Part shown: positions 5,883-42,040 of the stretch, piece by piece | Position numbering within the stretch: the first letter of the stretch is position 1 | Layout: every line of letters starts with the position of its first letter | Source of the DNA: a virus | Direction: 5' to 3' (one strand) | IMG/VR virus record: IMGVR_UViG_3300031552_000001 | Location: 1-64,000 of that record | DNA: 64,000 bases | Made by a program: the position numbers and the translations under genes | The notes under the pieces: generated by a model | Seen by the model: the letters and a program-made list of their open reading frames with translations, nothing else | Database searches by the model: none | Told to the model about the DNA's origin: nothing

Positions 5883-6221
5883 ATGGGAATAAACGTAGAC
5901 TCTACACGAGAGAATCAAACTGATACGCATTTATACGTTTGCTCAGAGTGCGGCTGCCCGGAAGTGGAAGAGAGCGTGTGGGTGGATATAAACACAGGTA
6001 AGGAAACTGAGGAAGACTCGCCTTTAGGTTATTACTGGTGCCCTAATTGTGAGGCAAATGTAAAAAGAGTGTGCTTGGTTAATACAAAAACTGGGGAATG
6101 CCTAGACCATGAAGGCCACAACGTTAAGCCCAACTTTAACTGGAAGCAAAGCAATGAAAAAGAATCCCGGCCCGAGGAAGGTGAAGCAGCTTGCGAGAAA
6201 CATCGCAGCGTGTTGGGTTGA
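5883..6221 (+). CDS. small zinc-ribbon protein
   Basis: AAGGAG SD; CSECG...YWCPNCE. Confidence 0.6.
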   Translation: MGINVDSTRENQTDTHLYVCSECGCPEVEESVWVDINTGKETEEDSPLGYYWCPNCEANVKRVCLVNTKTGECLDHEGHNVKPNFNWKQSNEKESRPEEGEAACEKHRSVLG

Positions 6222-6415
6222 GTAGGCCCTAGATGGTGGAGGCTTGGAGGACTCTCTCGCCGCAAGAGGATTTGATGAAGAGGAGATAGGGCTACAGGTA
6301 GAGGAGGAGTTGAAGCGTCTCATTGAACGTATGACCTGCGGGAGTCAACGACAGAGAAGAAGGCAGTGAGCGCCGTAAGAGAAGCTCCAATGTGGAAACA
6401 TGAAATGAGGCACGT

Positions 6416-6820
6416 ATGAAAAAGCCAACAACGCACGTTGTTGCGACGGGTATTATTGTCCTTGCGTACATCGCATTTGTTTTCGTTATCTCGATACAAC
6501 TCGACACAATTACCGACCAGCTGGGAAAGCTTCAGCCTAGCATCTATGCGACAAATGGTAGAGCTCAATGGAAGCCTATTGAACCCATACCGGATACCAG
6601 TAATTTTAACAAAATGTACTCCGATTTTTACTACATCGACGCAGGTCGTGTGGTAATGAAGCTGCGAAGTCTGAACGAGGGAAAACCGGGTAAGGTAGTC
6701 GAGATTCGGCGAAGCGATGACGTTCTTTTAGGGTACGTGGTGATGTTTGAAGACGGGACGAGTGTGCTCATGGAAAGCTTTGATCACAGGTACTGGCAGG
6801 ACAGCAAGAGTAGTAACTAG
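6416..6820 (+). CDS. N-terminally membrane-anchored hypothetical protein
   Basis: Hydrophobic VVATGIIVLAYIAFVFVISI; GAGG SD. Confidence 0.6.
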   Translation: MKKPTTHVVATGIIVLAYIAFVFVISIQLDTITDQLGKLQPSIYATNGRAQWKPIEPIPDTSNFNKMYSDFYYIDAGRVVMKLRSLNEGKPGKVVEIRRSDDVLLGYVVMFEDGTSVLMESFDHRYWQDSKSSN

Positions 6821-6912
6821 AGGTATCGCCAAAAGTAGATAATCAATGAGGCGTTTCAGCCTCAAAACATCACCAATAACTTTTACACTTCACGCTCTCA
6901 AGGAGAGGTAGT

Positions 6913-7311
6913 ATGCGTGTGGCTCGTATGAAATTATCTCGCGTTGATAAAGATATGTTCAGACAGTTGTATTCCCTGAACAAGCGCCGCTACGGCGAGA
7001 TGCGAGATATGCTGATTAAAGAAAGAACAAATAAAACGGCTTATGTGTATCTGATTTTTGACGAGAAGGACAAGCGAAGGGTAATTGCTTGGGCTATTAG
7101 TGCGTGCAAACACCAGCGCTCTTGTCCAGTAGGTATGTTTTGGGTTCGTCGCTCGCATCGTCGTCAAGGATTCGGGAAAAAACTACTGACCGCAATCGAT
7201 CTAGATTCTAAACGTAGATGCCGTAAATGGTACTACTACGACCATGACTACCGATCGTGTGAGTTTTTTTCACACACGTCGAGGGGCAAGAGCATAGACA
7301 CTCGGAGGTGA
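6913..7311 (+). CDS. GNAT-family acetyltransferase
   Basis: Acetyl-CoA binding motif A: FWVRRSHRRQGFGKKLL. Confidence 0.7.
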   Translation: MRVARMKLSRVDKDMFRQLYSLNKRRYGEMRDMLIKERTNKTAYVYLIFDEKDKRRVIAWAISACKHQRSCPVGMFWVRRSHRRQGFGKKLLTAIDLDSKRRCRKWYYYDHDYRSCEFFSHTSRGKSIDTRR

Positions 7312-7317
7312 ATCCTG

Positions 7318-7776
7318 ATGAGCACTACGCCCGAAAAAAGAAAGTTTGAGGTTGGTGATGTCGTTGCGAAGTTTGAGTACAACTGGGAGCTTGTTATCAG
7401 AAAGGTCGTCAAATCTTTTAAGAGGTACGTGGTGCTTTCTGACGGGTCAAAATACTCGCACGGCGGCCATGAATGCCACAGCGGCTATATAAGTTCGTAC
7501 ATTACTATAGCATCGCCAGAGCACCTCGAGGCGTTCAGGAAAAAGCTTAAATGGGGGAAGATAGAAAAGAAATTCAACGAATTGAAAGGACGAAGAGGCG
7601 AAATGGAAATGGGCGTCCTTAATTCTTTGCTCCAAACTTTAGAGAATATTTCTAACCAGGTTGCCGCACAGGGCGGCAGGTGGGGTCAGCGTCGAAAAAC
7701 GCATATACATGGAAGCGGCACTGGCCCCACTTCACACAACAGGAGCCAAAGGAACAAAAAACATGGCACAGCATGA
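7318..7776 (+). CDS. hypothetical protein
   Basis: 152-aa ORF, GGAGGT SD. Confidence 0.55.
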   Translation: MSTTPEKRKFEVGDVVAKFEYNWELVIRKVVKSFKRYVVLSDGSKYSHGGHECHSGYISSYITIASPEHLEAFRKKLKWGKIEKKFNELKGRRGEMEMGVLNSLLQTLENISNQVAAQGGRWGQRRKTHIHGSGTGPTSHNRSQRNKKHGTA

Positions 7777-28916: not shown

Positions 28917-29420
28917 ATGACTCTTATAATCTGGTGCGTTCTTTTGAATTGGTCTCCGTTCTTGCTGTTTTGGATTTATCCAGTAGGGATGATGTTAGTT
29001 TTTAAAGACTTCAAGTTTACCGGGTTTGAAGGCCCCTTTGCTAAATTCGAGTTAGTGAAAGAGGGAGTGGAACCCTGGCATCAGAAACTATGGAAAGATT
29101 GGGCAGGAGTGGGGTTGCCGGGGTTCCTTTGTTATAAAGTACCGCTCTTTAAACTAAAAGATTCAGACTGCAGACTCGCGTGGATAGTAAGAACAGTTAA
29201 GCATGAGAAGGTTCATTGCCGGCAATGGTTAGCGCTGGGCCTCCTGTTTCCAGTTTCCTACTACATACACGCGCTTTTCATACTTCTATTCAAAAAAGAT
29301 AAACACGCCTACTTGGACTGTTGGGCAGAAAGGGCGGCAAGAGAATATGCGGAGCAGAAGGTCGACATTCCCAAAGAAGAGTGGCCGCAAGGGCCAACGG
29401 ACAGGTGGCCTTGGTGGTAA
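28917..29420 (+). CDS. membrane-associated HExxH zincin-like protein
   Basis: VKHEKVHCRQW, hydrophobic segments, WAERAA. Confidence 0.55.
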   Translation: MTLIIWCVLLNWSPFLLFWIYPVGMMLVFKDFKFTGFEGPFAKFELVKEGVEPWHQKLWKDWAGVGLPGFLCYKVPLFKLKDSDCRLAWIVRTVKHEKVHCRQWLALGLLFPVSYYIHALFILLFKKDKHAYLDCWAERAAREYAEQKVDIPKEEWPQGPTDRWPWW

Positions 29421-29620
29421 CCTTACAAAAGTACCTAAAAACTAGGCCGCCGTTGCGACCAGCGCTTGTTATGGCAGAAGAATTTGTACTTAAACGCCTC
29501 CGTTTAATGCCCTATTGTGCGGGTGAAAAAGAACCCTCCGTATTCGGTATAAAAGTAGTGAAAGGTCTTTTGCTCTTGACTTCCTGATAGACAAGAGTAA
29601 TTTCACTTTCATTAGGTAAT

Positions 29621-29754
29621 GGGGCTGTTGACCAATGGTTAGGTCACTTTCCAGTCAAGAAAGAGCAAACACCGTTCGGTCCCTCGGTTCTTTTTAAGAA
29701 CCAACACAGCTAGAACAAACAAGCAATATGCAGGTTCGAATCCTGTCAGCCCCT
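29621..29754 (+). ncRNA. tRNA-like RNA 1 with ~65-nt insert between anticodon-like arm and T arm
   Basis: Acceptor GGGGCTG/CAGCCCC, D arm with GG, stem CTTTC-CAGTCAA-GAAAG, T arm GCAGG-TTCGAAT-CCTGT. Confidence 0.75.
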
Positions 29755-29783
29755 CCTTACCTAGTTTTGATCTCTGAATTTTT

Positions 29784-29919
29784 GGGGGTGTAGCCGAATT
29801 GGAATAGGCGCTTTCACAAGGGAGAAAGAAATGCACACCGTTCGGTTACTCGGCCTTCTACCGAAAGCCAACATACACGAACAAACAAGCACATGGAGGT
29901 TCGAATCCTCCCGCCCCCG
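29784..29919 (+). ncRNA. tRNA-like RNA 2 with conserved insert
   Basis: Acceptor GGGGGTG/CGCCCCC, TAGCCGAATTGGAATAGGC, CTTTC-ACAAGGGA-GAAAG, GGAGG-TTCGAAT-CCTCC. Confidence 0.75.
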
Positions 29920-29957
29920 CATTTTACGTAGTTTGCTTTATCAGTAGTAAGAATTAC

Positions 29958-30094
29958 GCCCCTGTAGCCAAAATGGTAAAGGCACTTGAAATTCTAATCA
30001 AGACAAAGACCCCGTTCTGGCACTCAGCTTTTTAAGAAGCTAACCGCAAGGAACAAACAAGCGTATGGAGGTTCGAATCCTTCCAGGGGCGCCA
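29958..30094 (+). ncRNA. tRNA-like RNA 3 with conserved insert and encoded CCA
   Basis: Acceptor GCCCCTG/CAGGGGC then GCCA, TAGCCAAAATGGTAAAGGC, CTTGA-AATTCTAA-TCAAG, GGAGG-TTCGAAT-CCTTC. Confidence 0.78.
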
Positions 30095-30098
30095 CTTT

Positions 30099-30221
30099 GG
30101 GGGAAGACTGGGCACGGTGCCCACCAGGTATGGGACTTGGACTCCGTTCTAAACCTCGGCTTCTTTAGAGAAGCCAACTAGTAGAACATACATGCAATCG
30201 GTTCGACTCCGACTCCCCCCA
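30099..30221 (+). ncRNA. tRNA-like RNA 4 with conserved insert and long D-stem
   Basis: GGGGGA/TCCCCC, TGGGCA-CGG-TGCCCA, insert CCGTTC...CTCGGCTTC...GAAGCCAAC...GAAC, TCGG-TTCGACT-CCGA. Confidence 0.65.
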
Positions 30222-30320
30222 CCTCTTCGATGTTTGGGTGCGCAACAAGAGGCGCTCACACGCAAATTTTTTAATTTGCTCCACCCACAAGCTTCTCTCC
30301 TCGCGCACCCGTCTCAAGAC

Positions 30321-30354
30321 GGCCTGAGTAAGCGTACCTCCGCTTACTCAGGCC
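30321..30354 (+). promoter_or_regulatory. 14-bp perfect hairpin between the tRNA-like array and the TROVE-like gene
   Basis: GGCCTGAGTAAGCG-TACCTC-CGCTTACTCAGGCC. Confidence 0.55.
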
Positions 30355-30434
30355 ATTCTACTTTCGACCTTCTTTAACTCAGACTTTTATCGTGGTAATA
30401 CGTGCCTCAATTTTTCTTTCACATGGAGACCAGC

Positions 30435-32321
30435 ATGGACCAACAGCAAACCCAAACAAGAACAGAAGCACTCGGTCCCGCCGAGAGGGTGATTCAGTCC
30501 CTCCTTCAGTACTCTGACCATATTTACCACGGCCGGCCAGGTTGTGTTCGTAAAAATGAGTCAGAGCCGGCAGGAGTAAAATGGGGGCCTGTTATCTGGA
30601 AAGAGGAGGGCGGAGAAAAGGTTGTATACGAGACTGTAAAAGTAGGAAGGCGGTCTGAGAGGAAAAAAATAGGAGTCCTCAAACCCGACCTCAAAATAAA
30701 AGACGGCCGAAGGGTAATAGGGGAATATAGAAAACCTGGGCTGTACAAAGAGCTAGCGGCGCACTGTTACGAGAAAATAGCTGAAGTATGGAAACTGGAC
30801 AATGAGTTTGCGGCCAGGTGGGCAAGCTGGGCGTTTACCCAAGAACACAGGGACTTAAAGGTGTTGCTTTGCGCTTTTATGCTCGTTCAAAGCCGTAAGG
30901 GAGATCCTGTCATCGAGGATGGAAAAATCCTATTCAAGGATGAGGATTACAGAGATGTCGGCGAGGCTATGTGTCTAACTCGCGCCAAGTTGGATTTAAA
31001 CCCAAAGCTGCTACTGAGAGTAGGCGAAGTGCTGGCTCTCGAAGACATCGCTAAAATCAACCGGAAAATGGGTTTCAATGTATCGGCACGAAAACCTGTA
31101 CTGGGTCGGTATTACAAAGTAGTCACAAAGTGGCTGAAGTACCGAGAAGAGAACATCCCTCTGTTACAAGGGCTAGTAAAAGCAGGATTTAGAACTACTG
31201 TAATGCGGCTTTCCCGAAAAGTCGGTTACAAGCCATCTTCCCCCTCGTTCTTTGAACTCTTGAAGTGGAGGCAAGTTCAGGCCAAAGACGGGCGCAGAAC
31301 TATAGCAATAGGTCAAAAGTTTGAGTCCGAGTCCTGGAAGGGCTTAAAAGAGGAACAAATTTGCGAGATAATCGTTTCAGAAAAACCCAACTGGAAAAGA
31401 TTAGTGGGCATGCTTCCTGTTGAAGTAGGGGTTACTCAAGCTATTGTTACTGCCGCGGTGGAGGCGGGCTGTCTTTCCAATCAGGACTTAATTATCCTTA
31501 CTCCTACCCTTGAGGAGCTAGGGTTACTGAAGGTTCCTGCTGTTCACGATAGGTGGAAGGAGGCAGTTAACAACGCGGAGAACCAAAGAGCTTCCAACAT
31601 TGCGAAAAACGTAAGAACGAAAGAAGCTAAAGACGGGCTGCAGGAGGCTTCTGATAGGGCCGCTGAGAAGGTTTTTAAAGAAGCAACCAAAGATCTAAGA
31701 GTCTACTGTATCGTCGATAAGTCAGGCTCCATGGATGGCGCTCTGGAAAGGGCGCAAGAATACCTCACCCGATTCCTCGGCGGGTTTCCACTAGACAGAC
31801 TTCATGTTTCTGTCTTCACCACAATGGGAACGGAAATACACATTCGTAGTGCAAAAGCTGCCGCAGTTAAACAAGCCTTTGCCGGTCATTCAGCAGGAGG
31901 AGGTACTTGCTACGCTGCAGGTGTGAAGGCTTTAAGTCACCATAAGCCATTAGACAATGAGGACACCTTAATGCTGTTTGTAGGTGATGAAGAAGACTCT
32001 GGGGTGAGCAATTTAGTGAATGAAATTAAAAAGTCGGGTATTCGCCCTTCGGCTTTTGGCCTTTTAAAAGTAGCAGGGTATGGCTTCGCAGGAGGAGGAG
32101 GAAATATAGTAACTCAAGCTGCTCGGCTACTGGACATTCCGTGCTTTCCCATACAAGAGGGTATGTTTACTTCAAACGACCCATATGCGGTCACTCGAAT
32201 TTTGAGGAACCTCATCGCTTCTACTCCAGTAGGTGCGAAAAGTACTCGAGTCTCGTCTAGGAAATCTCTCATAGAGGAGATTCTAGCCACCAAGCTGCTA
32301 AAAAAACCTGTTTGGGCATAG
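30435..32321 (+). CDS. divergent TROVE/Ro60-like helical domain plus C-terminal vWA domain
   Basis: vWA MIDAS IVDKSGSM, GGTCY, FVGDEE; helical N-terminus with TROVE-like DNEFAARWASWA and VMRLSRKVGYKP. Confidence 0.65.
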   Translation: MDQQQTQTRTEALGPAERVIQSLLQYSDHIYHGRPGCVRKNESEPAGVKWGPVIWKEEGGEKVVYETVKVGRRSERKKIGVLKPDLKIKDGRRVIGEYRKPGLYKELAAHCYEKIAEVWKLDNEFAARWASWAFTQEHRDLKVLLCAFMLVQSRKGDPVIEDGKILFKDEDYRDVGEAMCLTRAKLDLNPKLLLRVGEVLALEDIAKINRKMGFNVSARKPVLGRYYKVVTKWLKYREENIPLLQGLVKAGFRTTVMRLSRKVGYKPSSPSFFELLKWRQVQAKDGRRTIAIGQKFESESWKGLKEEQICEIIVSEKPNWKRLVGMLPVEVGVTQAIVTAAVEAGCLSNQDLIILTPTLEELGLLKVPAVHDRWKEAVNNAENQRASNIAKNVRTKEAKDGLQEASDRAAEKVFKEATKDLRVYCIVDKSGSMDGALERAQEYLTRFLGGFPLDRLHVSVFTTMGTEIHIRSAKAAAVKQAFAGHSAGGGTCYAAGVKALSHHKPLDNEDTLMLFVGDEEDSGVSNLVNEIKKSGIRPSAFGLLKVAGYGFAGGGGNIVTQAARLLDIPCFPIQEGMFTSNDPYAVTRILRNLIASTPVGAKSTRVSSRKSLIEEILATKLLKKPVWA

Positions 32322-35449: not shown

Positions 35450-36634
35450 ATGAAGCTGACAGCAGTAATAGGGGCAAACTACGGAGATGAAGGAAAAGGC
35501 CGCGTAGTTGACTACTTCTCAAACAAAGGCTCTTTGGTCGTACGGTTTAACGGTGGAGCCCAAGCAGGGCATACTGTAGTCACCAAAGTAGGCCGTAGAC
35601 ATGTTTTTAGGCATTTCGGCTCTGGCACATTCAAAAATGCGCCCACCTATCTTTCTAGGCACTTCATAGTTAACCCCGTACTTTTTCGTCCGGAGTATCA
35701 GCAATTATATGCGTTAGCGTTAGATACAAATGTCGTTGCGCACCCCGAATGTATCGTTACCACGCCCTGGGATATGTTTCTCAATCAGTCCTGTGAGAAG
35801 AGCAAATGCGTCTCTCACAGAGGAAGCTGCGGGTGTGGAATAAACGAGACAGTAGTGAGGAATCAGTCGAAGTTTAAACTCACCCTTAGAGACCTAAGCA
35901 GCCCAAACCTGCCAAGTACGTTATTTTCAATAAAAGACGAGTGGGTTCCGCACAGGGTGTCGGAACTGGGGCTTAGTTACGGAGAACTCTCTTCTTTGAT
36001 AAGAGAACCTGAGTGGGCTTATCGATTCTTGGATGACTGTAGGTTTTTCTTGAAAAAGTGCAGGGTTCTCCCCTTACATGAAGGGGATACCTCTCCTAAC
36101 TTTTCCAGCTTTCCTGATGCAAAACACGTCATCTTTGAAGGTGCTCAGGGTCTACGGTTAGACGAGTTAGGTCGCGATTTTCCTTTTGTTACTAGATCTC
36201 GGACGGGCCTCCCTAACGTATTGGACATTATTAGAAAAGAAGGGTTTAACGACACTCTGGATGTCGTATACGTTACGCGCCCCTATCTCACTCGTCACGG
36301 TGCCGGTCCGCTGAATAACGAACTTACGGCTCCGCCTTACGCAGGAATTACTGAAAGGACTAATGTTTTCAACGCTAATCAAGGCCCCTTTCGATATGCT
36401 TGGTTAGATATAGACGCGCTAGCAAGAACTACTAAAGAAGACCTAAGCCTAGCGACTGACGTAAAAACAAACCCGAAATTTGCTATAACATGTTTGGACC
36501 AAATGCCCCGTACTTTTTCTGTCATAGCGGAGGGTAAATTGGTGATGGTCACTGCCAAAAAATTGGCATCTATGCTTTCGGACCGTACTGGCATAGAAGT
36601 GTGTATGATGACGCCCCCTCCTTCTCCTATCTAA
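35450..36634 (+). CDS. purA: adenylosuccinate synthetase-like protein (PurA-type active site)
   Basis: GANYGDEGKG, RFNGGAQAGHTV, IFEGAQG, TRHGAGP. Confidence 0.88.
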   Translation: MKLTAVIGANYGDEGKGRVVDYFSNKGSLVVRFNGGAQAGHTVVTKVGRRHVFRHFGSGTFKNAPTYLSRHFIVNPVLFRPEYQQLYALALDTNVVAHPECIVTTPWDMFLNQSCEKSKCVSHRGSCGCGINETVVRNQSKFKLTLRDLSSPNLPSTLFSIKDEWVPHRVSELGLSYGELSSLIREPEWAYRFLDDCRFFLKKCRVLPLHEGDTSPNFSSFPDAKHVIFEGAQGLRLDELGRDFPFVTRSRTGLPNVLDIIRKEGFNDTLDVVYVTRPYLTRHGAGPLNNELTAPPYAGITERTNVFNANQGPFRYAWLDIDALARTTKEDLSLATDVKTNPKFAITCLDQMPRTFSVIAEGKLVMVTAKKLASMLSDRTGIEVCMMTPPPSPI

Positions 36635-36751
36635 AAATAACCCGACACTCGGCCTTCAGCGCAGGCATTTTCATCTAGAACAGTCGGGTTCAATTAGTCT
36701 ATTTTGGCGCTGTGCCGCAGATTGGTAGTCATTCTAAAAAAGAGGTTTATC

Positions 36752-38743
36752 ATGAAACAGGTTACTTGGGTTTTTCTGTGTTTGAGCATCGTGTCGTGTT
36801 CGAGCGGCACGCTGTTCGTTCCTTTAGAGTCAAATCCGTGTGACTCGTGTGAAGAAGGAGAGGTTTGCAGCCAAGGCGAATGCATTTCTCCAATTGATTG
36901 TGAAGAGTTAGGGGGTGTTGTGGTCAAGGGGGGCGGCGCATGCCAGCTATGCGGCGACTTTGAGGTGGTGGGTACAGAAGAGTGCGATGATGGGGAAGAA
37001 ACCGAATTTTGCAACTCAGACTGCACTTTTACTGAGTGCGGGGACGCCATAGTGAACTTTGCCTCAGGAGAAGAGTGCGATGATGGAGAAAATAATGGCA
37101 GGTATCAAGGATGCACAAAAGAGTGCACAATTTCTCCTTACTGTGGAGGAGACAGTGCCGCGGTAGCTTGTGACGATCACGACGCATGTACAGTTGATGC
37201 TTGCAGTTACGACGGATGCACAAACACCTTCTCGTCTGACTTATGTCACCACCTTGCGTTCGACGTGGCGCCTATGAAGACAGTGTTCGTAGGTATGACC
37301 TGGCCGACGTTTTCTGTGCGAGTGGAGAATTCTCTGGGCTACCCGGTAAACATTTCCTCTCCTGTTACCTTAGTCTTATCAGGGGCGCTCAACAGAACCA
37401 TCGAAGCTACCCTCGTAGAAGGAGGTGCTTACTTCTCGACTCTTGCAGCATTCAAGATTGGAGCTGTAAGCATAGAAGCTAGCGTGCCTCTTATAGGCTC
37501 CACGTCAAGAACTGTTGCAGTTATTGACCCCTCTCCAGAGTGCAAGCTGGACGATGATTGCGATTTGGGTTTTGTGTGTAATGAGAATTGGGGAATTTGC
37601 GCGCTTCCTAACTGCAAATCTCAACCGGACTTCACTCCCTGTGAAGTAATAACAGACCCCGACCGCTCCTACGATATTTGCTTGGGGGGTAAATGCGAAT
37701 CTCCTGGCTGTGGAGAAGGTAACTGTAATTCTCCGGGGCCCAATTTCAAGATACCGGATACAGGAGCGGTGCTTTGTTATGGAGAGGATTCAGAAATTCC
37801 CTGCCCTAGTGAAGAAGAGGCCTATTATCTACAAGATGCTCAACAGGGGTGGGATTTTACCCATTCTGCGCCAGAAAGGTTCTCGATAGATGTGTCGTCT
37901 GGAAATAAAGTGATAACAGATACTATCACTAATTTGATGTGGGAAGGCTGCACTCAAGGTTATGACAACTGCTCTGACCTAGGTGGGGTTTGCGGTCCTA
38001 TGTGCGACTGGAGTGAATCTATAGCTTATTGTGATTCTTTAATGTGGGGAGGGTACACAGATTGGAGGTTGCCTAATTCCCAGGAACTTCTGTCTATTAT
38101 CGACTACCGCCATCTCACTCCGGCGCTAGACAAAGAAGTGTTCGACGACTTAGGTGTATACCCTGGCGCGATGTATTGGACATCTGACAGCTCTCTATAC
38201 GAAAAATCTATGGGGCTCACAGTAGATTTTCGAGATGGGGAGACGTCAGTTCAAGATAAAAGCCACGAAATTCCTACTCGTTGCGTAAGAGGGCGCCCTC
38301 ATCTCATAAACTACAATAGGTTTGAAAAAACAGAAGGAGCGTATCCCACGGTTTTAGATACTACTACGGGGCTGATGTGGCAGGGTTGTTTAGCTAGCTC
38401 TAATTCCGTCTGTAACCCTAATTACACCTCCAAATATCGATGGGATGGAGCTTTGTTCTATTGCGAAAATTTAGAATGGGGAGGCTATAGTGATTGGCGG
38501 CTCCCTAATGTAAAAGAAACACACAGTTTGATAAATCACAGAGAGCGTTCGAGAGTCGACTCCACTATGTTTCCTATGGTGTCCAATCAGTCCCTAATTT
38601 GGACATCTACGCCATCTCCAAAAATTAGTGGAGGATCGTCTACAAAAAAAGAGGCATGGAGGGCGCTTTTCGGCTCTTACGACAGTATAAGTTCTGGCAG
38701 CAAGGAAGAGATGCTTGAAGTCATGTGCGTAAGAGACCCATAA
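36752..38743 (+). CDS. Cys-rich putative lipoprotein with DUF4215-like repeats and two Lcl/DUF1566 domains
   Basis: Lipobox-like LSIVSC; CGD...EECDDG repeats; TNLMWE...YTDWRLPNSQEL and TGLMWQ...YSDWRLPNVKE. Confidence 0.8.
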   Translation: MKQVTWVFLCLSIVSCSSGTLFVPLESNPCDSCEEGEVCSQGECISPIDCEELGGVVVKGGGACQLCGDFEVVGTEECDDGEETEFCNSDCTFTECGDAIVNFASGEECDDGENNGRYQGCTKECTISPYCGGDSAAVACDDHDACTVDACSYDGCTNTFSSDLCHHLAFDVAPMKTVFVGMTWPTFSVRVENSLGYPVNISSPVTLVLSGALNRTIEATLVEGGAYFSTLAAFKIGAVSIEASVPLIGSTSRTVAVIDPSPECKLDDDCDLGFVCNENWGICALPNCKSQPDFTPCEVITDPDRSYDICLGGKCESPGCGEGNCNSPGPNFKIPDTGAVLCYGEDSEIPCPSEEEAYYLQDAQQGWDFTHSAPERFSIDVSSGNKVITDTITNLMWEGCTQGYDNCSDLGGVCGPMCDWSESIAYCDSLMWGGYTDWRLPNSQELLSIIDYRHLTPALDKEVFDDLGVYPGAMYWTSDSSLYEKSMGLTVDFRDGETSVQDKSHEIPTRCVRGRPHLINYNRFEKTEGAYPTVLDTTTGLMWQGCLASSNSVCNPNYTSKYRWDGALFYCENLEWGGYSDWRLPNVKETHSLINHRERSRVDSTMFPMVSNQSLIWTSTPSPKISGGSSTKKEAWRALFGSYDSISSGSKEEMLEVMCVRDP

Positions 38744-38847: not shown

Positions 38848-39096
38848 ATGAGAAAAACACCAAAAGACACCCCAGGCCTTAAAGCTTGCGGGTGTAAAAA
38901 TTCGAACGTGTTAACTTGTTATGTTTATGATGCTAGCTTTACTGGTGTCCGAGAGCATTACGTACAGTGTCAGTCTTGCGGAAGTGGAACAAGAGTGACT
39001 TCCACTAAAGCTGAAGCTCAGCGCTTATGGAATATTAGACAGCTACAATGGATAAACCCAAAGAAATGGCGTTTTAAAGAGGGTAAAGAATGCTAG
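38848..39096 (+). CDS. Lar-like (restriction alleviation) zinc-finger protein
   Basis: CGC...YVQCQSCGSGT...AEAQRLWN. Confidence 0.6.
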   Translation: MRKTPKDTPGLKACGCKNSNVLTCYVYDASFTGVREHYVQCQSCGSGTRVTSTKAEAQRLWNIRQLQWINPKKWRFKEGKEC

Positions 39097-39485
39097 AAGC
39101 GGCTGCTGTGTTTGATTTAAACTTCAACGAGTTTTATGGACATTATCCTGACGGAAGAACCGACTCTTGGATACCTGACTCTCGATCTTTGTGGGAATTT
39201 ATTTGGGAGCACCGAGTAGAAGTAGGGGGAGTCGCCCACACGCATCCGTGGGATGGGGAGGCTTATCCGTCACAAACAGACATAACCACGTTCGCTGCCA
39301 TAGAAACAGGGCTCGGTAAAAGACTTCTGTGGCCAATTATTACTATGACAGAAACTAGATGTTTCTCATTCAACAAACTAATGCGAGAGTACACAGATAC
39401 TTTGTTTCTCATTAACATTCCGCAGCATACAGAGGCATTACGTATTCTTGCGGAAAACCTGCGACAAAAGTCGCTAGGAGGATAA
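39090..39485 (+). CDS. JAB/MPN+ (Mov34) metallopeptidase
   Basis: JAMM motif AHTHP...YPSQTD. Confidence 0.85.
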   Translation: MLEAAAVFDLNFNEFYGHYPDGRTDSWIPDSRSLWEFIWEHRVEVGGVAHTHPWDGEAYPSQTDITTFAAIETGLGKRLLWPIITMTETRCFSFNKLMREYTDTLFLINIPQHTEALRILAENLRQKSLGG

Positions 39486-40432: not shown

Positions 40433-40662
40433 AACATAGCCAGACTGCCTCCTACAACAACCTTTCCGGCAAAGTAATTCATGTCGGCGTAGGGATTCAT
40501 GCCGTTGTAAAGGAATTTTGCAGGGAACGTAACTTACACATGAGAAACTTTACAGAAGAGGCTCTAGATAGAGCTATGTTTGTGACAAAAGAAGAAGAAA
40601 GTTACGAAACTGAGCATAGAAAGAACAAAAATGAAGAAAAGACATCTGTCTCTGCCGATTGA
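40429..40662 (+). CDS. ribbon-helix-helix-like regulator
   Basis: KVIHVGVGIHAVVKEFCRERNLHMRNFTEEAL. Confidence 0.5.
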   Translation: MKHSQTASYNNLSGKVIHVGVGIHAVVKEFCRERNLHMRNFTEEALDRAMFVTKEEESYETEHRKNKNEEKTSVSAD

Positions 40663-41452
40663 GTGCGGAGAAAAAACTTGTGCTTCTCAAAAAGGAAAGT
40701 TCTGCGAGTTTTTGTATGTAGAGAGATTTGGTACAACCCCCTTCTGCAAATTGTTTTCTGAACAGTTAAGAATAAAGGGGCATGTTCCCTTGGAAGAGGT
40801 AGACGGGTGGTTGCAGCGTCATCCAAGGTGTCTCGAGCTCGAAAGCAAGTTAGAGGCCCTGCCTTTAGAAAACTTCTCGGATAAAAATATCCGACTTTTC
40901 GGAAACGAGTTGTCTCTTACAGGGGCCTTATTCTCGAGTAATGAGGAAGGGTACATCTGCTTATTTCCTACTCAAAAAGCGCCACCTAACATAGCAGTCA
41001 TGCCATTAGATATTGAGGAGTGGAAACACCTTCTCAAGCAATTAGACACTCAAGAGGTGGAAGTAATTCAAACCGCTTCAGATGGAACGGTTACCAAAGC
41101 AATTTTGAGAAAAAGTCAGAGACTTATCGAACAGAGGGTCTCCTGGAGTGTATTTCGACGAGACAGCTACCGTTGCAGGTATTGTGGCGCCACTGGGGTT
41201 CCGCTGACCGTAGACCATTTAGTTCTATGGGAAGAAGGGGGGCCCAGCACAGAAGATAACCTCCTTACTGCCTGCCGCCCCTGCAATAAGACTAGAGGTA
41301 ACTTGCCATATGAAGAATGGCTTAAACACCCTTACTACCTTGAGAAAGCACGCAACGGCCTCTCGAGAGGACAGCAATGCGCCTTAGCGGCTATTGTGCC
41401 TCGCCTAAAAGACATTGAGCGTAGAGTGTCCAAACGTTCAACAAGAAAATGA
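40631..41452 (+). CDS. HNH endonuclease-domain protein (McrA-like)
   Basis: VFRRDSYRCRYCG...LTVDHLV...GG...NLLTACRPCNKTRG. Confidence 0.88.
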   Translation: MKKRHLSLPIECGEKTCASQKGKFCEFLYVERFGTTPFCKLFSEQLRIKGHVPLEEVDGWLQRHPRCLELESKLEALPLENFSDKNIRLFGNELSLTGALFSSNEEGYICLFPTQKAPPNIAVMPLDIEEWKHLLKQLDTQEVEVIQTASDGTVTKAILRKSQRLIEQRVSWSVFRRDSYRCRYCGATGVPLTVDHLVLWEEGGPSTEDNLLTACRPCNKTRGNLPYEEWLKHPYYLEKARNGLSRGQQCALAAIVPRLKDIERRVSKRSTRK

Positions 41453-41464
41453 CAGGAGATTTTT

Positions 41465-42040
41465 ATGATAGTCATTGTTGGATTAGGCGCTTTGGGCTCT
41501 CACTTGGCTTTAGTTTTAAGGAACCACAAAGAGGGGCTACATCTAATTGATTTCGATAGAGTGGACTCTCATAACACTCAAGCTCAGTTCCACGGTGTAA
41601 GAGATATTCGACTCAAAAAATCGGAGTCTTTGAAGAAGAATCTATTTGGGCTATTTGGCTCAAAAGTACTGGCTACCCCCCATAGAGTAGAAGAAACCAA
41701 CGCAGAGACACTGCTTTCTTCCAACGAGGTCGTAGCAGATTGTACAGACAACTACGTTGCTCGGCAGCTCATACAAAAAGTATGTACCAAACTGCCCGTG
41801 CCATGCCTACACGGAGCTCTTTCAGGTGATGGGCTGTTTAGCCGAGTAGTGTGGGATGAGCACTTTACAGAAGCGGACAGGGAGGACGAAGAGGGCGGTG
41901 CTACTTGCGAGAATGGAGAAAGGCTACCATTCTTCTCTTTCGTCAGCTCTTTTATGGGAGGGGAAATACAGCACTTTCTGAAAACTGGCCAGAAGAGGAG
42001 TTTTCAGCTTACCTCTTCTTCAGTTCTTCGACTTGCTTAG
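41465..42040 (+). CDS. ThiF/MoeB/E1-like adenylyltransferase
   Basis: VGLGALGS, IDFDRV..HN, KK, DCTDN. Confidence 0.9.
   Translation: MIVIVGLGALGSHLALVLRNHKEGLHLIDFDRVDSHNTQAQFHGVRDIRLKKSESLKKNLFGLFGSKVLATPHRVEETNAETLLSSNEVVADCTDNYVARQLIQKVCTKLPVPCLHGALSGDGLFSRVVWDEHFTEADREDEEGGATCENGERLPFFSFVSSFMGGEIQHFLKTGQKRSFQLTSSSVLRLA

What the first reader, a model, noticed from the sequence alone, without database searches (positions are those of the whole stretch)
29621..30221. Four tandem tRNA mimics, each with a conserved ~65-nt insert carrying a second anticodon-like loop
Seen: each unit has an acceptor stem, a D arm with GG and a canonical TTCGAAT/TTCGACT T arm (unit 3 ends GCCA), but the 'anticodon' loops lack U33 or have 8 nt. 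The variable region is replaced by CCGTTC-N5-CTC-[stem-loop]-AAC-N5..7-GAAC-A(A/T)ACA(A/T)GC. GTTC pairs with GAAC, and the inner stems covary (GGTTC/GAACC, GGC/GCC, AGCTT/AAGCT, GGCTTC/GAAGCC). Units 1 and 3 display C-TTTTTAA-G, a tRNA-Lys(UUU)-like loop. The scaffolds look derived from different tRNAs (Asp/Glu-like, Leu/Tyr-like, Sec-like long D stem) while the insert is shared. Established: bacterial Y RNAs (YrlA) mimic tRNA and lie beside Ro60 genes, and PrrC and PARIS AriB cut tRNA-Lys(UUU). Inference: a new Y-like RNA class, possibly RNase P/Z-processed decoys for anticodon nucleases or Ro60 tethers.
Basis: partly seen in the sequence, partly recalled or inferred. Interest (0 to 1): 0.88.

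Follow-up and report, generated by a model that had tools for sequence, protein, structure and literature searches.

The report
tRNA-shaped Y RNAs beside phage Ro60
Four tRNA look-alikes in a 192-kb phage each carry the same folded 55-base "handle", and this handle most likely lets them work as Y-RNA-type partners of the very diverged Ro60-like protein encoded just downstream.

Summary
Four tandem tRNA-shaped genes (29621-30221, + strand) each carry one conserved insert between the anticodon arm and the T arm. These are the only four copies in the 192-kb phage genome.

The insert is a structured module: CCG, helix P1, NCUC, helix P2 with a tetraloop, AAY, P1', then YUACAAGC. Both helices covary strongly in 21 relatives. 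The "second anticodon loop" is not real, because P2 closes to a tetraloop.

In related huge phages and in Myxococcota chromosomes the same module occurs in three topologies:
- inside a tRNA, as here;
- as a terminal stem around a circularly permuted tRNA, which is the YrlA topology;
- as a terminal stem around a whole tRNA-like RNA or a small hairpin. The window has one of these at 30236-30310.

Myxobacterial copies carry the YrlA motif GNCGAAG in the module's internal loop. They lie just upstream of a 38%-identical homologue of the window's next gene.

That gene (30435-32321) has no Pfam TROVE hit. Its model nevertheless matches Ro60 best, both full length and with the N-terminal part alone.

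Best reading (about 0.6): these are Y-RNA-like partners of a divergent Ro60. This is a new variant of a known system, and binding is untested. Earlier notes of this scan describe the same protein-RNA pairing on other genomes.

The parts
29621..29754 (+). Unit 1: tRNA-shaped RNA. Acceptor 29621-27 with 29747-53; D arm 29630-45; anticodon arm 29647-63 with loop CAGTCAA (A33); module 29668-29724; T arm 29730-46.
   Evidence: Model R1 131 bits; module model R2 27.3 bits; fold z -3.6.
29784..29919 (+). Unit 2: tRNA-shaped RNA with an 8-nt 'anticodon' loop ACAAGGGA; module 29834-29890.
   Evidence: Rfam tRNA 36.1 bits with a 73-nt insertion; R2 20.3 bits.
29958..30094 (+). Unit 3: tRNA-shaped RNA with an 8-nt loop AATTCTAA and an encoded CCA; module 30008-30062.
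   Evidence: Rfam tRNA 47.1 bits, model positions 1-71 with the insertion; R2 30.4 bits.
30099..30221 (+). Unit 4: Sec/allo-tRNA-like scaffold with an 8-bp acceptor stem (one A.C mismatch), a long D stem with a short loop and a 4-bp T stem; loop TATGGGA (A33); module 30140-30195.
   Evidence: R1 42.1 bits; R2 31.7 bits. The same subfamily occurs in L008:3621, L030:9298 and L013:9058.
30236..30310 (+). Fifth element: the same module with its ends open. An 8-bp terminal stem (GGGTGCGC/GCGCACCC) is followed by the AAC and CCUC internal loop, P1, and the tail TCACACGC. It encloses only a 7-bp A/U hairpin instead of a tRNA, so it is a minimal Y-RNA-like form.
   Evidence: Fold -29.2 kcal/mol, z -4.7. 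It matches the open-stem pattern of about 36 relatives, with P1 paired 6 of 7. It sits at the same position as the tRNA-bearing open form L008:3762-3882.
30321..30354 (+). 14-bp terminator-like hairpin that closes the RNA array before the protein gene.
30435..32321 (+). Divergent Ro60-like protein (628 aa): a beta-rich N-terminal piece, a helical-repeat TROVE-like domain, and a C-terminal vWA domain. It is the likely partner of the RNAs.
   Evidence: VWA_2 at 25 bits, just under Pfam's cut-off of 27. Full-length model: top Foldseek hits are Ro60 (1yvp, E 1.7e-7 over 575 columns; also 9kop, 9l5y, 2nvo). N-terminal 418 aa alone against 48,161 chains: the top three are Ro60 proteins (Z 9.4, 9.2, 7.6; next 6.4). 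vWA domain Z 16.4.

Best explanation
The four units are tRNA-shaped, Y-RNA-like non-coding RNAs.

The roughly 55-nt insert is a conserved handle. It consists of helix P1, an internal loop with CUC on one strand and AAY on the other, helix P2, and the single-stranded leads CCG and YUACAAGC. It corresponds to the Ro60-binding terminal stem of bacterial YrlA RNAs.

I infer the following steps:
1. The array is transcribed as one unit ending at the hairpin at 30321-30354.
2. Host tRNA enzymes cut it into RNAs of about 135 nt, because the acceptor, D and T elements are intact.
3. The divergent Ro60-like ring protein encoded next door binds each RNA through the handle.
4. The tRNA-like body then acts as the tether or gate, as in known Ro60-Y RNA particles. 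It could bring tRNA-handling or RNA-decay enzymes to the ring, or control which RNAs enter it.

Shown here: the structure of the module, its three topologies, its kinship with YrlA-type RNAs, the Ro60-like fold of the protein, and the linkage of RNA and gene.

Inferred only: transcription, processing, binding, and the tether or gate role.
For: 1. The module is a selected structure. P1 and P2 covary (85% paired against 59% in shuffles; covariation score 0.79 against 0.26; 0 of 500 shuffles reach it; slid controls at most 0.26). CTCG and ACA.G are invariant.
2. The module model R2 finds 64 copies in 45 related loci, all on the strand of the protein gene. About 56 of them sit in a full tRNA body.
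3. The same module occurs with open ends. It encloses a circularly permuted tRNA (T arm, closed acceptor stem, D arm, anticodon arm), a whole tRNA-like RNA, or a small hairpin. Forty candidates have P1 paired at least 6 of 7, against 8.4 in shuffles. Folds give z -3.7 to -4.7.
4. The permuted form L013:8683-8777 hits Rfam YrlA at 30.1 bits (E 5e-5), aligned T arm, closed stem, D arm. YrlA's conserved YUAY (PMC4201824) matches the YUAC of the tail.
5. Copies in genomes labelled Myxococcus (L238) and Archangium (L186, L230), and in four further prokaryote records whose titles I did not see (L262, L268, L271, L277), carry GCCGAAG, which is YrlA's GNCGAAN0-1G, in the module's internal loop.
6. In four of those seven loci (L238, L262, L271, L277) a homologue of the protein (38-39% identity) lies 0.1-1.1 kb downstream on the same strand.
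7. The protein folds like Ro60. Language-model features also point to TROVE, as a lead only.
8. In five whole phage records of 188-536 kb, all modules lie in the 10-kb locus of this gene, while tRNAs spread over 30-50 kb. In this phage the three normal tRNAs are 150 kb away.
9. Of 10 contigs found by RNA motif alone, 8 encode the protein. The other two are fragments, 5% and 27% complete.
10. The RNAs do not look like decoders. Only about 16 of 45 clear anticodon loops have 7 nt with U33. Three units lack the anticodon arm altogether.
11. The tRNA core is kept. Levitt-type 15:48 pairs occur in 27 of 36 units, against 19 expected.
12. Precedent: phage phiLo Ro60 has Y-like RNA genes just upstream of its gene (PMC12135203).
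Against: - No Pfam TROVE or DUF2828 match and no PDB sequence match to Ro60.
- Foldseek finds nothing significant with the N-terminal model alone. The Ro60 alignments have large rmsd (11-13 A), and Z values of 8-9 are only moderate for helical repeats.
- The window's RNAs lack the GNCGAA motif and give no YrlA hit.
- The termini of units 1-4 are in the acceptor stem, unlike any described Y RNA.
- Gene and module are both traits of one phage clade, so co-occurrence is partly phylogenetic.
- In one complete 436-kb genome, five modules lie 232 kb from the gene.
- GenBank relative Rctr197k has the gene but no closed module by R2.
- A37-A38 and 5-bp anticodon stems are mostly kept. That hints at some selection on the anticodon arm.
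Confidence: 0.6

Rival explanations
1. They are working tRNAs with a giant extra arm. They would be charged (for example by a synthetase that reads a long variable arm) and used in translation, perhaps for unusual decoding with 8-nt loops.
For: Complete cloverleaf and tertiary-pair signals. Unit 3 and several relatives encode CCA. Some relatives have canonical loops such as CTGTTAA and CTTCCAC. A37-A38 are mostly kept.
Against: All four window units lack a normal loop (A33 or 8 nt). Only about a third of relatives have a 7-nt loop with U33. Three units have no anticodon arm. The same module occurs on permuted RNAs with a closed acceptor stem, which cannot be charged, and on non-tRNA hairpins. 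I infer that an arm of about 14 bp may not fit the ribosome.
Confidence: 0.12
2. The module is a processing signal rather than a functional arm. It would be an intron in units 1-4, and the joined ends of permuted or leader-trailer precursors in relatives, cut and ligated as archaeal and algal bulge-helix-bulge substrates are.
For: The three topologies (inside a tRNA, around a permuted tRNA, around a whole tRNA) mirror the known range of bulge-helix-bulge substrates. Removing the stretch from AGCAAACA to ACAAGC from unit 1 would leave a 73-nt cloverleaf.
Against: Removal would not repair the abnormal anticodon loops. The residues left after the tail vary from 0 to 5 nt, giving impossible variable loops in many units. 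The loop is a 4x4 internal loop, not two 3-nt bulges 4 bp apart. Rfam finds no group I or ribozyme family, and the genome has no RtcB. I did not search the genome for a splicing endonuclease. Some payloads are not tRNAs. Permuted YrlA RNAs are known to be stable end products (PMC4201824).
Confidence: 0.1
3. They are decoys or sponges for host tRNA-targeting defence nucleases or other tRNA-binding factors, and act independently of the neighbouring protein.
For: The loops look like anticodon loops on the 3' side but are altered at positions 32-33, near where some anticodon nucleases cut (established knowledge). They sit in phage tRNA regions. Phage tRNA arrays are thought to counter tRNA cleavage.
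Against: No bias toward Lys, Tyr or other known target anticodons. The conserved part is the handle, not the anticodon arm, which can be lost. The chromosomal myxobacterial copies beside the same protein argue for a housekeeping ribonucleoprotein.
Confidence: 0.1

Closest known systems
YrlA Y RNAs with Rsr/Ro60 (Rfam RF02553; Chen et al. 2014, PMC4201824; Wang et al. 2018, 10.1101/312249)
   Same: A tRNA-like domain with conserved T and D arms joined to a bulged stem. The RNA is encoded next to, and on the strand of, a Ro60-type gene. YUAY precedes the T arm. Relatives with permuted order (T arm, closed acceptor stem, D arm) give a sub-threshold YrlA hit. Myxobacterial relatives carry GNCGAAG in the stem's loop.
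   Different: In units 1-4 the termini are in the acceptor stem (true tRNA topology), and the stem is a closed hairpin in the variable region. A full anticodon arm is kept. The window lacks GNCGAA and has AAY with CUC instead. No Rfam hit. The partner protein is not recognised as TROVE by sequence.
Thermus phage phiLo Ro60 with Yrl1 and Yrl2 (PMC12135203; PDB 9KOP, 9L5Y)
   Same: A phage-encoded Ro60 with small RNA genes directly upstream. 9l5y is the best structural match of the N-terminal domain (Z 9.4).
   Different: The phiLo RNAs are stem-bulge-stem Y RNAs with CGAA and without a tRNA body. The proteins share only about 15% identity. The window protein has an extra beta-rich N-terminal piece.
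Class II, Sec and allo-tRNAs with long variable arms
   Same: An extra arm emerges between the anticodon and T arms. Unit 4 has an 8-bp acceptor stem, a 4-bp T stem and a long D stem.
   Different: The arm is about 55 nt with two helices, a conserved internal loop and 8-13-nt conserved single-stranded flanks, against 10-25 nt. The anticodon loops are abnormal.
Intron-containing and circularly permuted tRNA genes of archaea and red algae (bulge-helix-bulge processing)
   Same: The element occurs inside tRNAs, around permuted tRNAs and around whole tRNAs.
   Different: No bulge-helix-bulge geometry. No RtcB ligase was found in the genome, and I did not search for a splicing endonuclease. Excision would not give canonical tRNAs.

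Membership tests
tRNA (RF00005) | Cloverleaf with acceptor, D, anticodon and T arms, scoring above Rfam's gathering score | tested here: inconclusive
   Units 3 and 2 score 47.1 and 36.1 bits (gathering score 29) with a 60-73-nt insertion. Units 1 and 4 are not reported. ARAGORN finds none.
tRNA (RF00005) | 7-nt anticodon loop with U33 and a purine at position 37 | tested here: not met
   The loops are CAGTCAA, ACAAGGGA, AATTCTAA and TATGGGA: A33 or 8 nt in all four.
YrlA (RF02553) | Match to the covariance model at the gathering score (69 bits) | tested here: not met
   No hit in 29400-30500 at E up to 10. The permuted relative L013:8683-8777 reaches 30.1 bits.
YrlA (RF02553) | 5' and 3' ends pair to form the Ro60-binding stem, and the acceptor-like stem is closed | tested here: not met
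   Units 1-4 have their ends in the acceptor stem. The feature is met in permuted relatives, and the terminal stem is met by the window's fifth element at 30236-30310.
YrlA (RF02553) | GNCGAAN0-1G motif near the 5' end (PMC4201824) | tested here: not met
   The window has AAC after P2. GCCGAAG is present at the equivalent place in the Myxococcus and Archangium copies and in four further prokaryote records.
YrlA (RF02553) | Conserved T and D arms with tRNA tertiary pairs | tested here: met
   T loop TTCGA, GG in the D loop, and A15:U48 or G15:C48 in 27 of 36 units.
YrlA (RF02553) | Encoded beside a Ro60 orthologue | tested here: met
   The array ends 214 nt before a Ro60-like gene on the same strand. 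The linkage recurs in phages and Myxococcota.
Ro60/TROVE protein (PF05731) | Sequence match to the TROVE domain | tested here: not met
   No Pfam hit at E up to 10 in 16 family members. The six-frame genome search is empty. Profile against PDB sequences: only vWA.
Ro60/TROVE protein (PF05731) | Helical-repeat ring domain followed by a vWA domain | tested here: inconclusive
   Ro60 proteins are the top full-length Foldseek hits (E 1.7e-7) and the top three of 48,161 chains for the N-terminal part (Z 9.4, 9.2, 7.6). However, rmsd is 11-13 A, ring closure is not modelled, and Foldseek finds nothing significant with the N-terminal model alone.
Group I or bulge-helix-bulge tRNA intron | Group I core, or two 3-nt bulges separated by a 4-bp helix | tested here: not met
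   No Rfam intron or ribozyme family. The module has one 4x4 internal loop between 7-8-bp and 6-bp helices.

The most novel reading that the evidence does not exclude
The units are a previously undescribed class of Y RNA that keeps true tRNA topology with free acceptor ends. They could be processed, CCA-tailed and perhaps charged like tRNAs while docked on a Ro60-like ring.

Together with the permuted and minimal forms in relatives, they would record how YrlA-type Y RNAs arose from tRNAs that acquired a Ro60-binding arm.

In this phage clade the particle would work with the nearby ubiquitin-like conjugation genes (JAB, ThiF/E1) as an RNA-surveillance or counter-defence machine.
Probability: 0.25. 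Interest if true: 0.85.

Novelty: new variant of a known kind. Interest (0 to 1): 0.7.

Why it matters
Ro60-Y RNA particles are conserved from bacteria to humans. How Y RNAs arose, and what their tRNA-like parts do, remains open.

This family shows one protein-binding handle mounted on tRNA bodies in three topologies. One of these leaves the tRNA ends free. The partner is a Ro60 relative too diverged for sequence methods to recognise.

The family is abundant in huge soil and sediment phages. It also occurs in cultivable Myxococcus and Archangium strains, so binding, processing and function are directly testable. It adds an RNA family that is absent from Rfam, and a large protein family (more than 1,700 homologues) that is currently annotated only as vWA or hypothetical.

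Tried and rejected
I rejected this as spurious, because the same tail would give every unit the same anticodon.
- blastn of the array against 50,697 GenBank phages found no match.
- The exact window motif scanned in IMG/VR found only one true relative (L002) and chance hits (L001, L007).
- Pfam, PHROGs and PDB sequence searches gave only vWA for the neighbouring protein.
- VIA re-ranking of the full-length model was swamped by vWA domains. Foldseek found nothing significant with the N-terminal model alone.
- No RtcB in the genome.
- No sigma-70-like promoter upstream of the array.
[quoted passage not shown] It fits some units but not L024 or L017, so I dropped it.
- Rfam found no YrlA in seven further loci when they were searched together. 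The one hit there spans two adjacent tRNAs and is an artefact of T-arm-then-D-arm order.
- Complex prediction was not used, because it does not take RNA.

Full report
**What is there**

The window is the first 64 kb of a 192-kb IMG/VR phage record. Between a thymidylate-kinase gene region and a 628-aa gene lie four tandem units on the + strand: 29621-29754, 29784-29919, 29958-30091 and 30099-30221.

Each unit has a 7-8-bp acceptor stem, a D arm with GG, a 5-bp 'anticodon' stem and a canonical T arm. Each also carries an insert of about 55 nt, plus flanks, between the anticodon and T arms.

- ARAGORN sees no tRNA.
- Rfam's tRNA model matches units 3 and 2 end to end around a 60-73-nt insertion.
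- No other Rfam family, YrlA included, matches at E up to 10.
- The insert motifs occur nowhere else in the genome.
- The phage's three ordinary tRNAs are 150 kb away.

**The insert is a conserved structured module**

I fetched 51 related loci through the downstream protein and found many more units.

The consensus runs: CCG, P1 (7-8 bp), NCUC, P2 (6 bp, G-C closed, tetraloop), AYCN, P1', YWACAMGY, then 0-5 nt before the T stem.

On 21 sequences, 85% of cells pair (59% in shuffles). Thirteen of 14 pairs show changes on both sides. The covariation score is 0.79 against 0.26, reached by 0 of 500 shuffles, and slid controls reach at most 0.26.

A covariance model of the module alone (R2) finds:
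- 64 copies in 45 loci, all on the strand of the protein gene;
- the four window units, at 20-32 bits;
- nothing else in the 192-kb genome.

In the window P1 is shortened to GTTC/GAAC plus a few pairs. P2 closes to a 3-4-nt loop, so the 'second anticodon loop' is not supported.

**These are tRNA-shaped, but they do not look like decoders**

About 56 of the 64 modules sit in a complete tRNA body, with a 7/7 acceptor match and a TTCGA T loop. Levitt-type 15:48 pairs are kept in 27 of 36 units, against 19 expected.

Of 45 clear anticodon arms, only about 16 have a 7-nt loop with U33. Nine have A33, five C33 and two G33. Many loops have 6, 8 or 9 nt.

Three relatives have no anticodon arm at all: L039:8901, L027:2260 and L017:3693. 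All four window units are abnormal.

**The same handle occurs in three topologies**

Relatives also carry the module with open ends.

- One form reads: 5' P2 strand, AAY, P1 strand, YUACAAGC, T arm, acceptor stem closed by a loop, D arm, anticodon arm, linker, P1 strand, NCUC, P2 strand 3'. Examples are L013:8676-8807 and L028:9553-9690. This is a circular permutation of the window's units, and it is the topology of YrlA.
- In another form the open stem encloses a whole tRNA-like RNA (L008:3762-3882, L024:3780-3902).
- In a third it encloses only a small hairpin.

P1 complementarity in these forms far exceeds shuffled partners: 40 candidates against a mean of 8.4. Folds have z of -3.7 to -4.7.

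The window has a minimal open form at 30236-30310, followed by a 14-bp terminator-like hairpin.

**Kinship with YrlA**

The permuted form L013:8683-8777 hits Rfam YrlA at 30.1 bits, E 5e-5. This is below the gathering score of 69. The alignment covers the T arm, the closed stem and the D arm.

YrlA's conserved YUAY before the V/T region (PMC4201824) corresponds to the YUAC of the tail.

A motif scan of 185,579 prokaryote genomes found permuted copies in Myxococcus sp. CA023, Archangium violaceum and related records. In these the module's internal loop reads GCCGAAG, which fits YrlA's Rsr-associated GNCGAAN0-1G motif. The phage AAY is the degenerate equivalent.

**The partner protein**

The gene at 30435-32321 has only a borderline vWA match by sequence.

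- Its AlphaFold model (pLDDT 74) has Ro60 proteins as the best full-length Foldseek hits: 1yvp at E 1.7e-7 over 575 columns, then phage phiLo Ro60 and D. radiodurans Rsr.
- The N-terminal 418 aa alone (pLDDT 78) were aligned to 48,161 representative chains. The top three were Ro60 proteins (Z 9.4, 9.2, 7.6), and the next match had Z 6.4.
- Foldseek found nothing significant with the N-terminal model alone, and rmsd values are large.

I therefore call the protein Ro60-like by fold and architecture, not a proven TROVE member.

**Linkage of RNA and gene**

- In five whole phage records (188-536 kb), every module lies in the 10-kb locus of this gene, although tRNAs spread over 30-50 kb.
- A protein-blind RNA-motif scan of IMG/VR returned at least 112 loci. 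Of 10 contigs new to the session, 8 encode the protein. The other two are 5% and 27% complete.
- Distances between module and gene are usually 3-20 kb. Once, five modules also lie 232 kb away.
- Three of five gene-bearing records without a module within 4 kb have modules 4-9 kb away. GenBank phage Rctr197k has none by R2.
- In four prokaryote loci (one labelled Myxococcus), a 38-39%-identical homologue lies 0.1-1.1 kb downstream of the RNA on the same strand.

This recurrence at low protein identity is the best evidence that the link is more than clade synteny.

**Interpretation**

The most economical reading is a Ro60-Y RNA type particle. The module is the protein-binding handle, and the tRNA-like body is the tether or gate. 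Units 1-4 are a topological variant with free tRNA ends.

Published precedent exists for Y-like RNA genes directly upstream of a phage Ro60 gene (phiLo, PMC12135203), and for tRNA mimicry by YrlA (PMC4201824).

Transcription, processing, binding and function are inferred, not shown. Rivals remain open at lower odds: true tRNAs with a giant arm, a splicing or processing signal, and nuclease decoys.

**Relation to earlier notes of this scan**

Other agents reported the same kind of Ro60-like protein with handle-bearing tRNA-mimic RNAs on other genomes. In this clade they also reported a linked ubiquitin-like gene set. Here I confirmed only that JAB (39090-39485) and ThiF/E1 (41465-42040) genes are present downstream.

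Noticed in passing
window 30236-30310: A fifth, minimal member of the RNA family. The module has open ends (an 8-bp terminal stem, the AAC and CCUC loop, P1, and the tail TCACACGC) and encloses only an A/U hairpin. Its counterpart in relative L008:3762-3882 encloses a tRNA-like RNA.
   Followed up: yes
window 29630-29682, 29792-29848, 29967-30022; L008:3410-3470: In units 1-3 and the closest relative, CCGTT plus the next 4-5 nt is complementary to the 5' half of the D arm including G18-G19 (for example GACC.AATGG with CCGTT.GGTC). The variable part covaries in all four. The minimum-energy folds use this pairing instead of the D stem. This may be an alternative conformer. It is not seen in more distant relatives.
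   Followed up: partly
L039:8901-9009, L027:2260-2366, L017:3693-3751 region: Family members with acceptor, D and T arms plus the module, but no anticodon arm at all.
   Followed up: partly
L024:3780-3902, L027:2508-2634, L030:9444-9568, L038:8801-8926, L015:2524-2651: The tRNA-like RNAs enclosed by open module stems share a conserved loop CUAUNAA/CUAAUAG with A at the wobble position. This looks like a distinct non-decoding subfamily.
   Followed up: no
window 39090-39485 and 41465-42040: Prok-JAB (26.9 bits) and ThiF/E1 (76 bits) genes lie 7-10 kb downstream of the Ro60-like gene. An HNH endonuclease gene (40631-41452) lies between them. Earlier notes of the scan link such ubiquitin-like sets to this Ro60-like family.
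   Followed up: partly
window 35450-36634: An adenylosuccinate-synthetase-family gene whose best PHROG is the PurZ-type (2-aminoadenine pathway) synthetase. Whether this phage makes Z-DNA was not examined.
   Followed up: no
   Followed up: yes
L238:4722-4847 with 5925-7634; L277:852-980 with 1104-2813: Permuted tRNA-plus-module RNAs with a GCCGAAG loop lie directly upstream of a 38%-identical homologue of the Ro60-like protein. L238 is from the cultured isolate Myxococcus sp. CA023, which makes it a tractable host for experiments. I did not see the record title for L277.
   Followed up: partly
window 36704-38743: A 679-aa protein with two Lcl C-terminal domains (172 bits), downstream of the PurA-like gene.
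   Followed up: no
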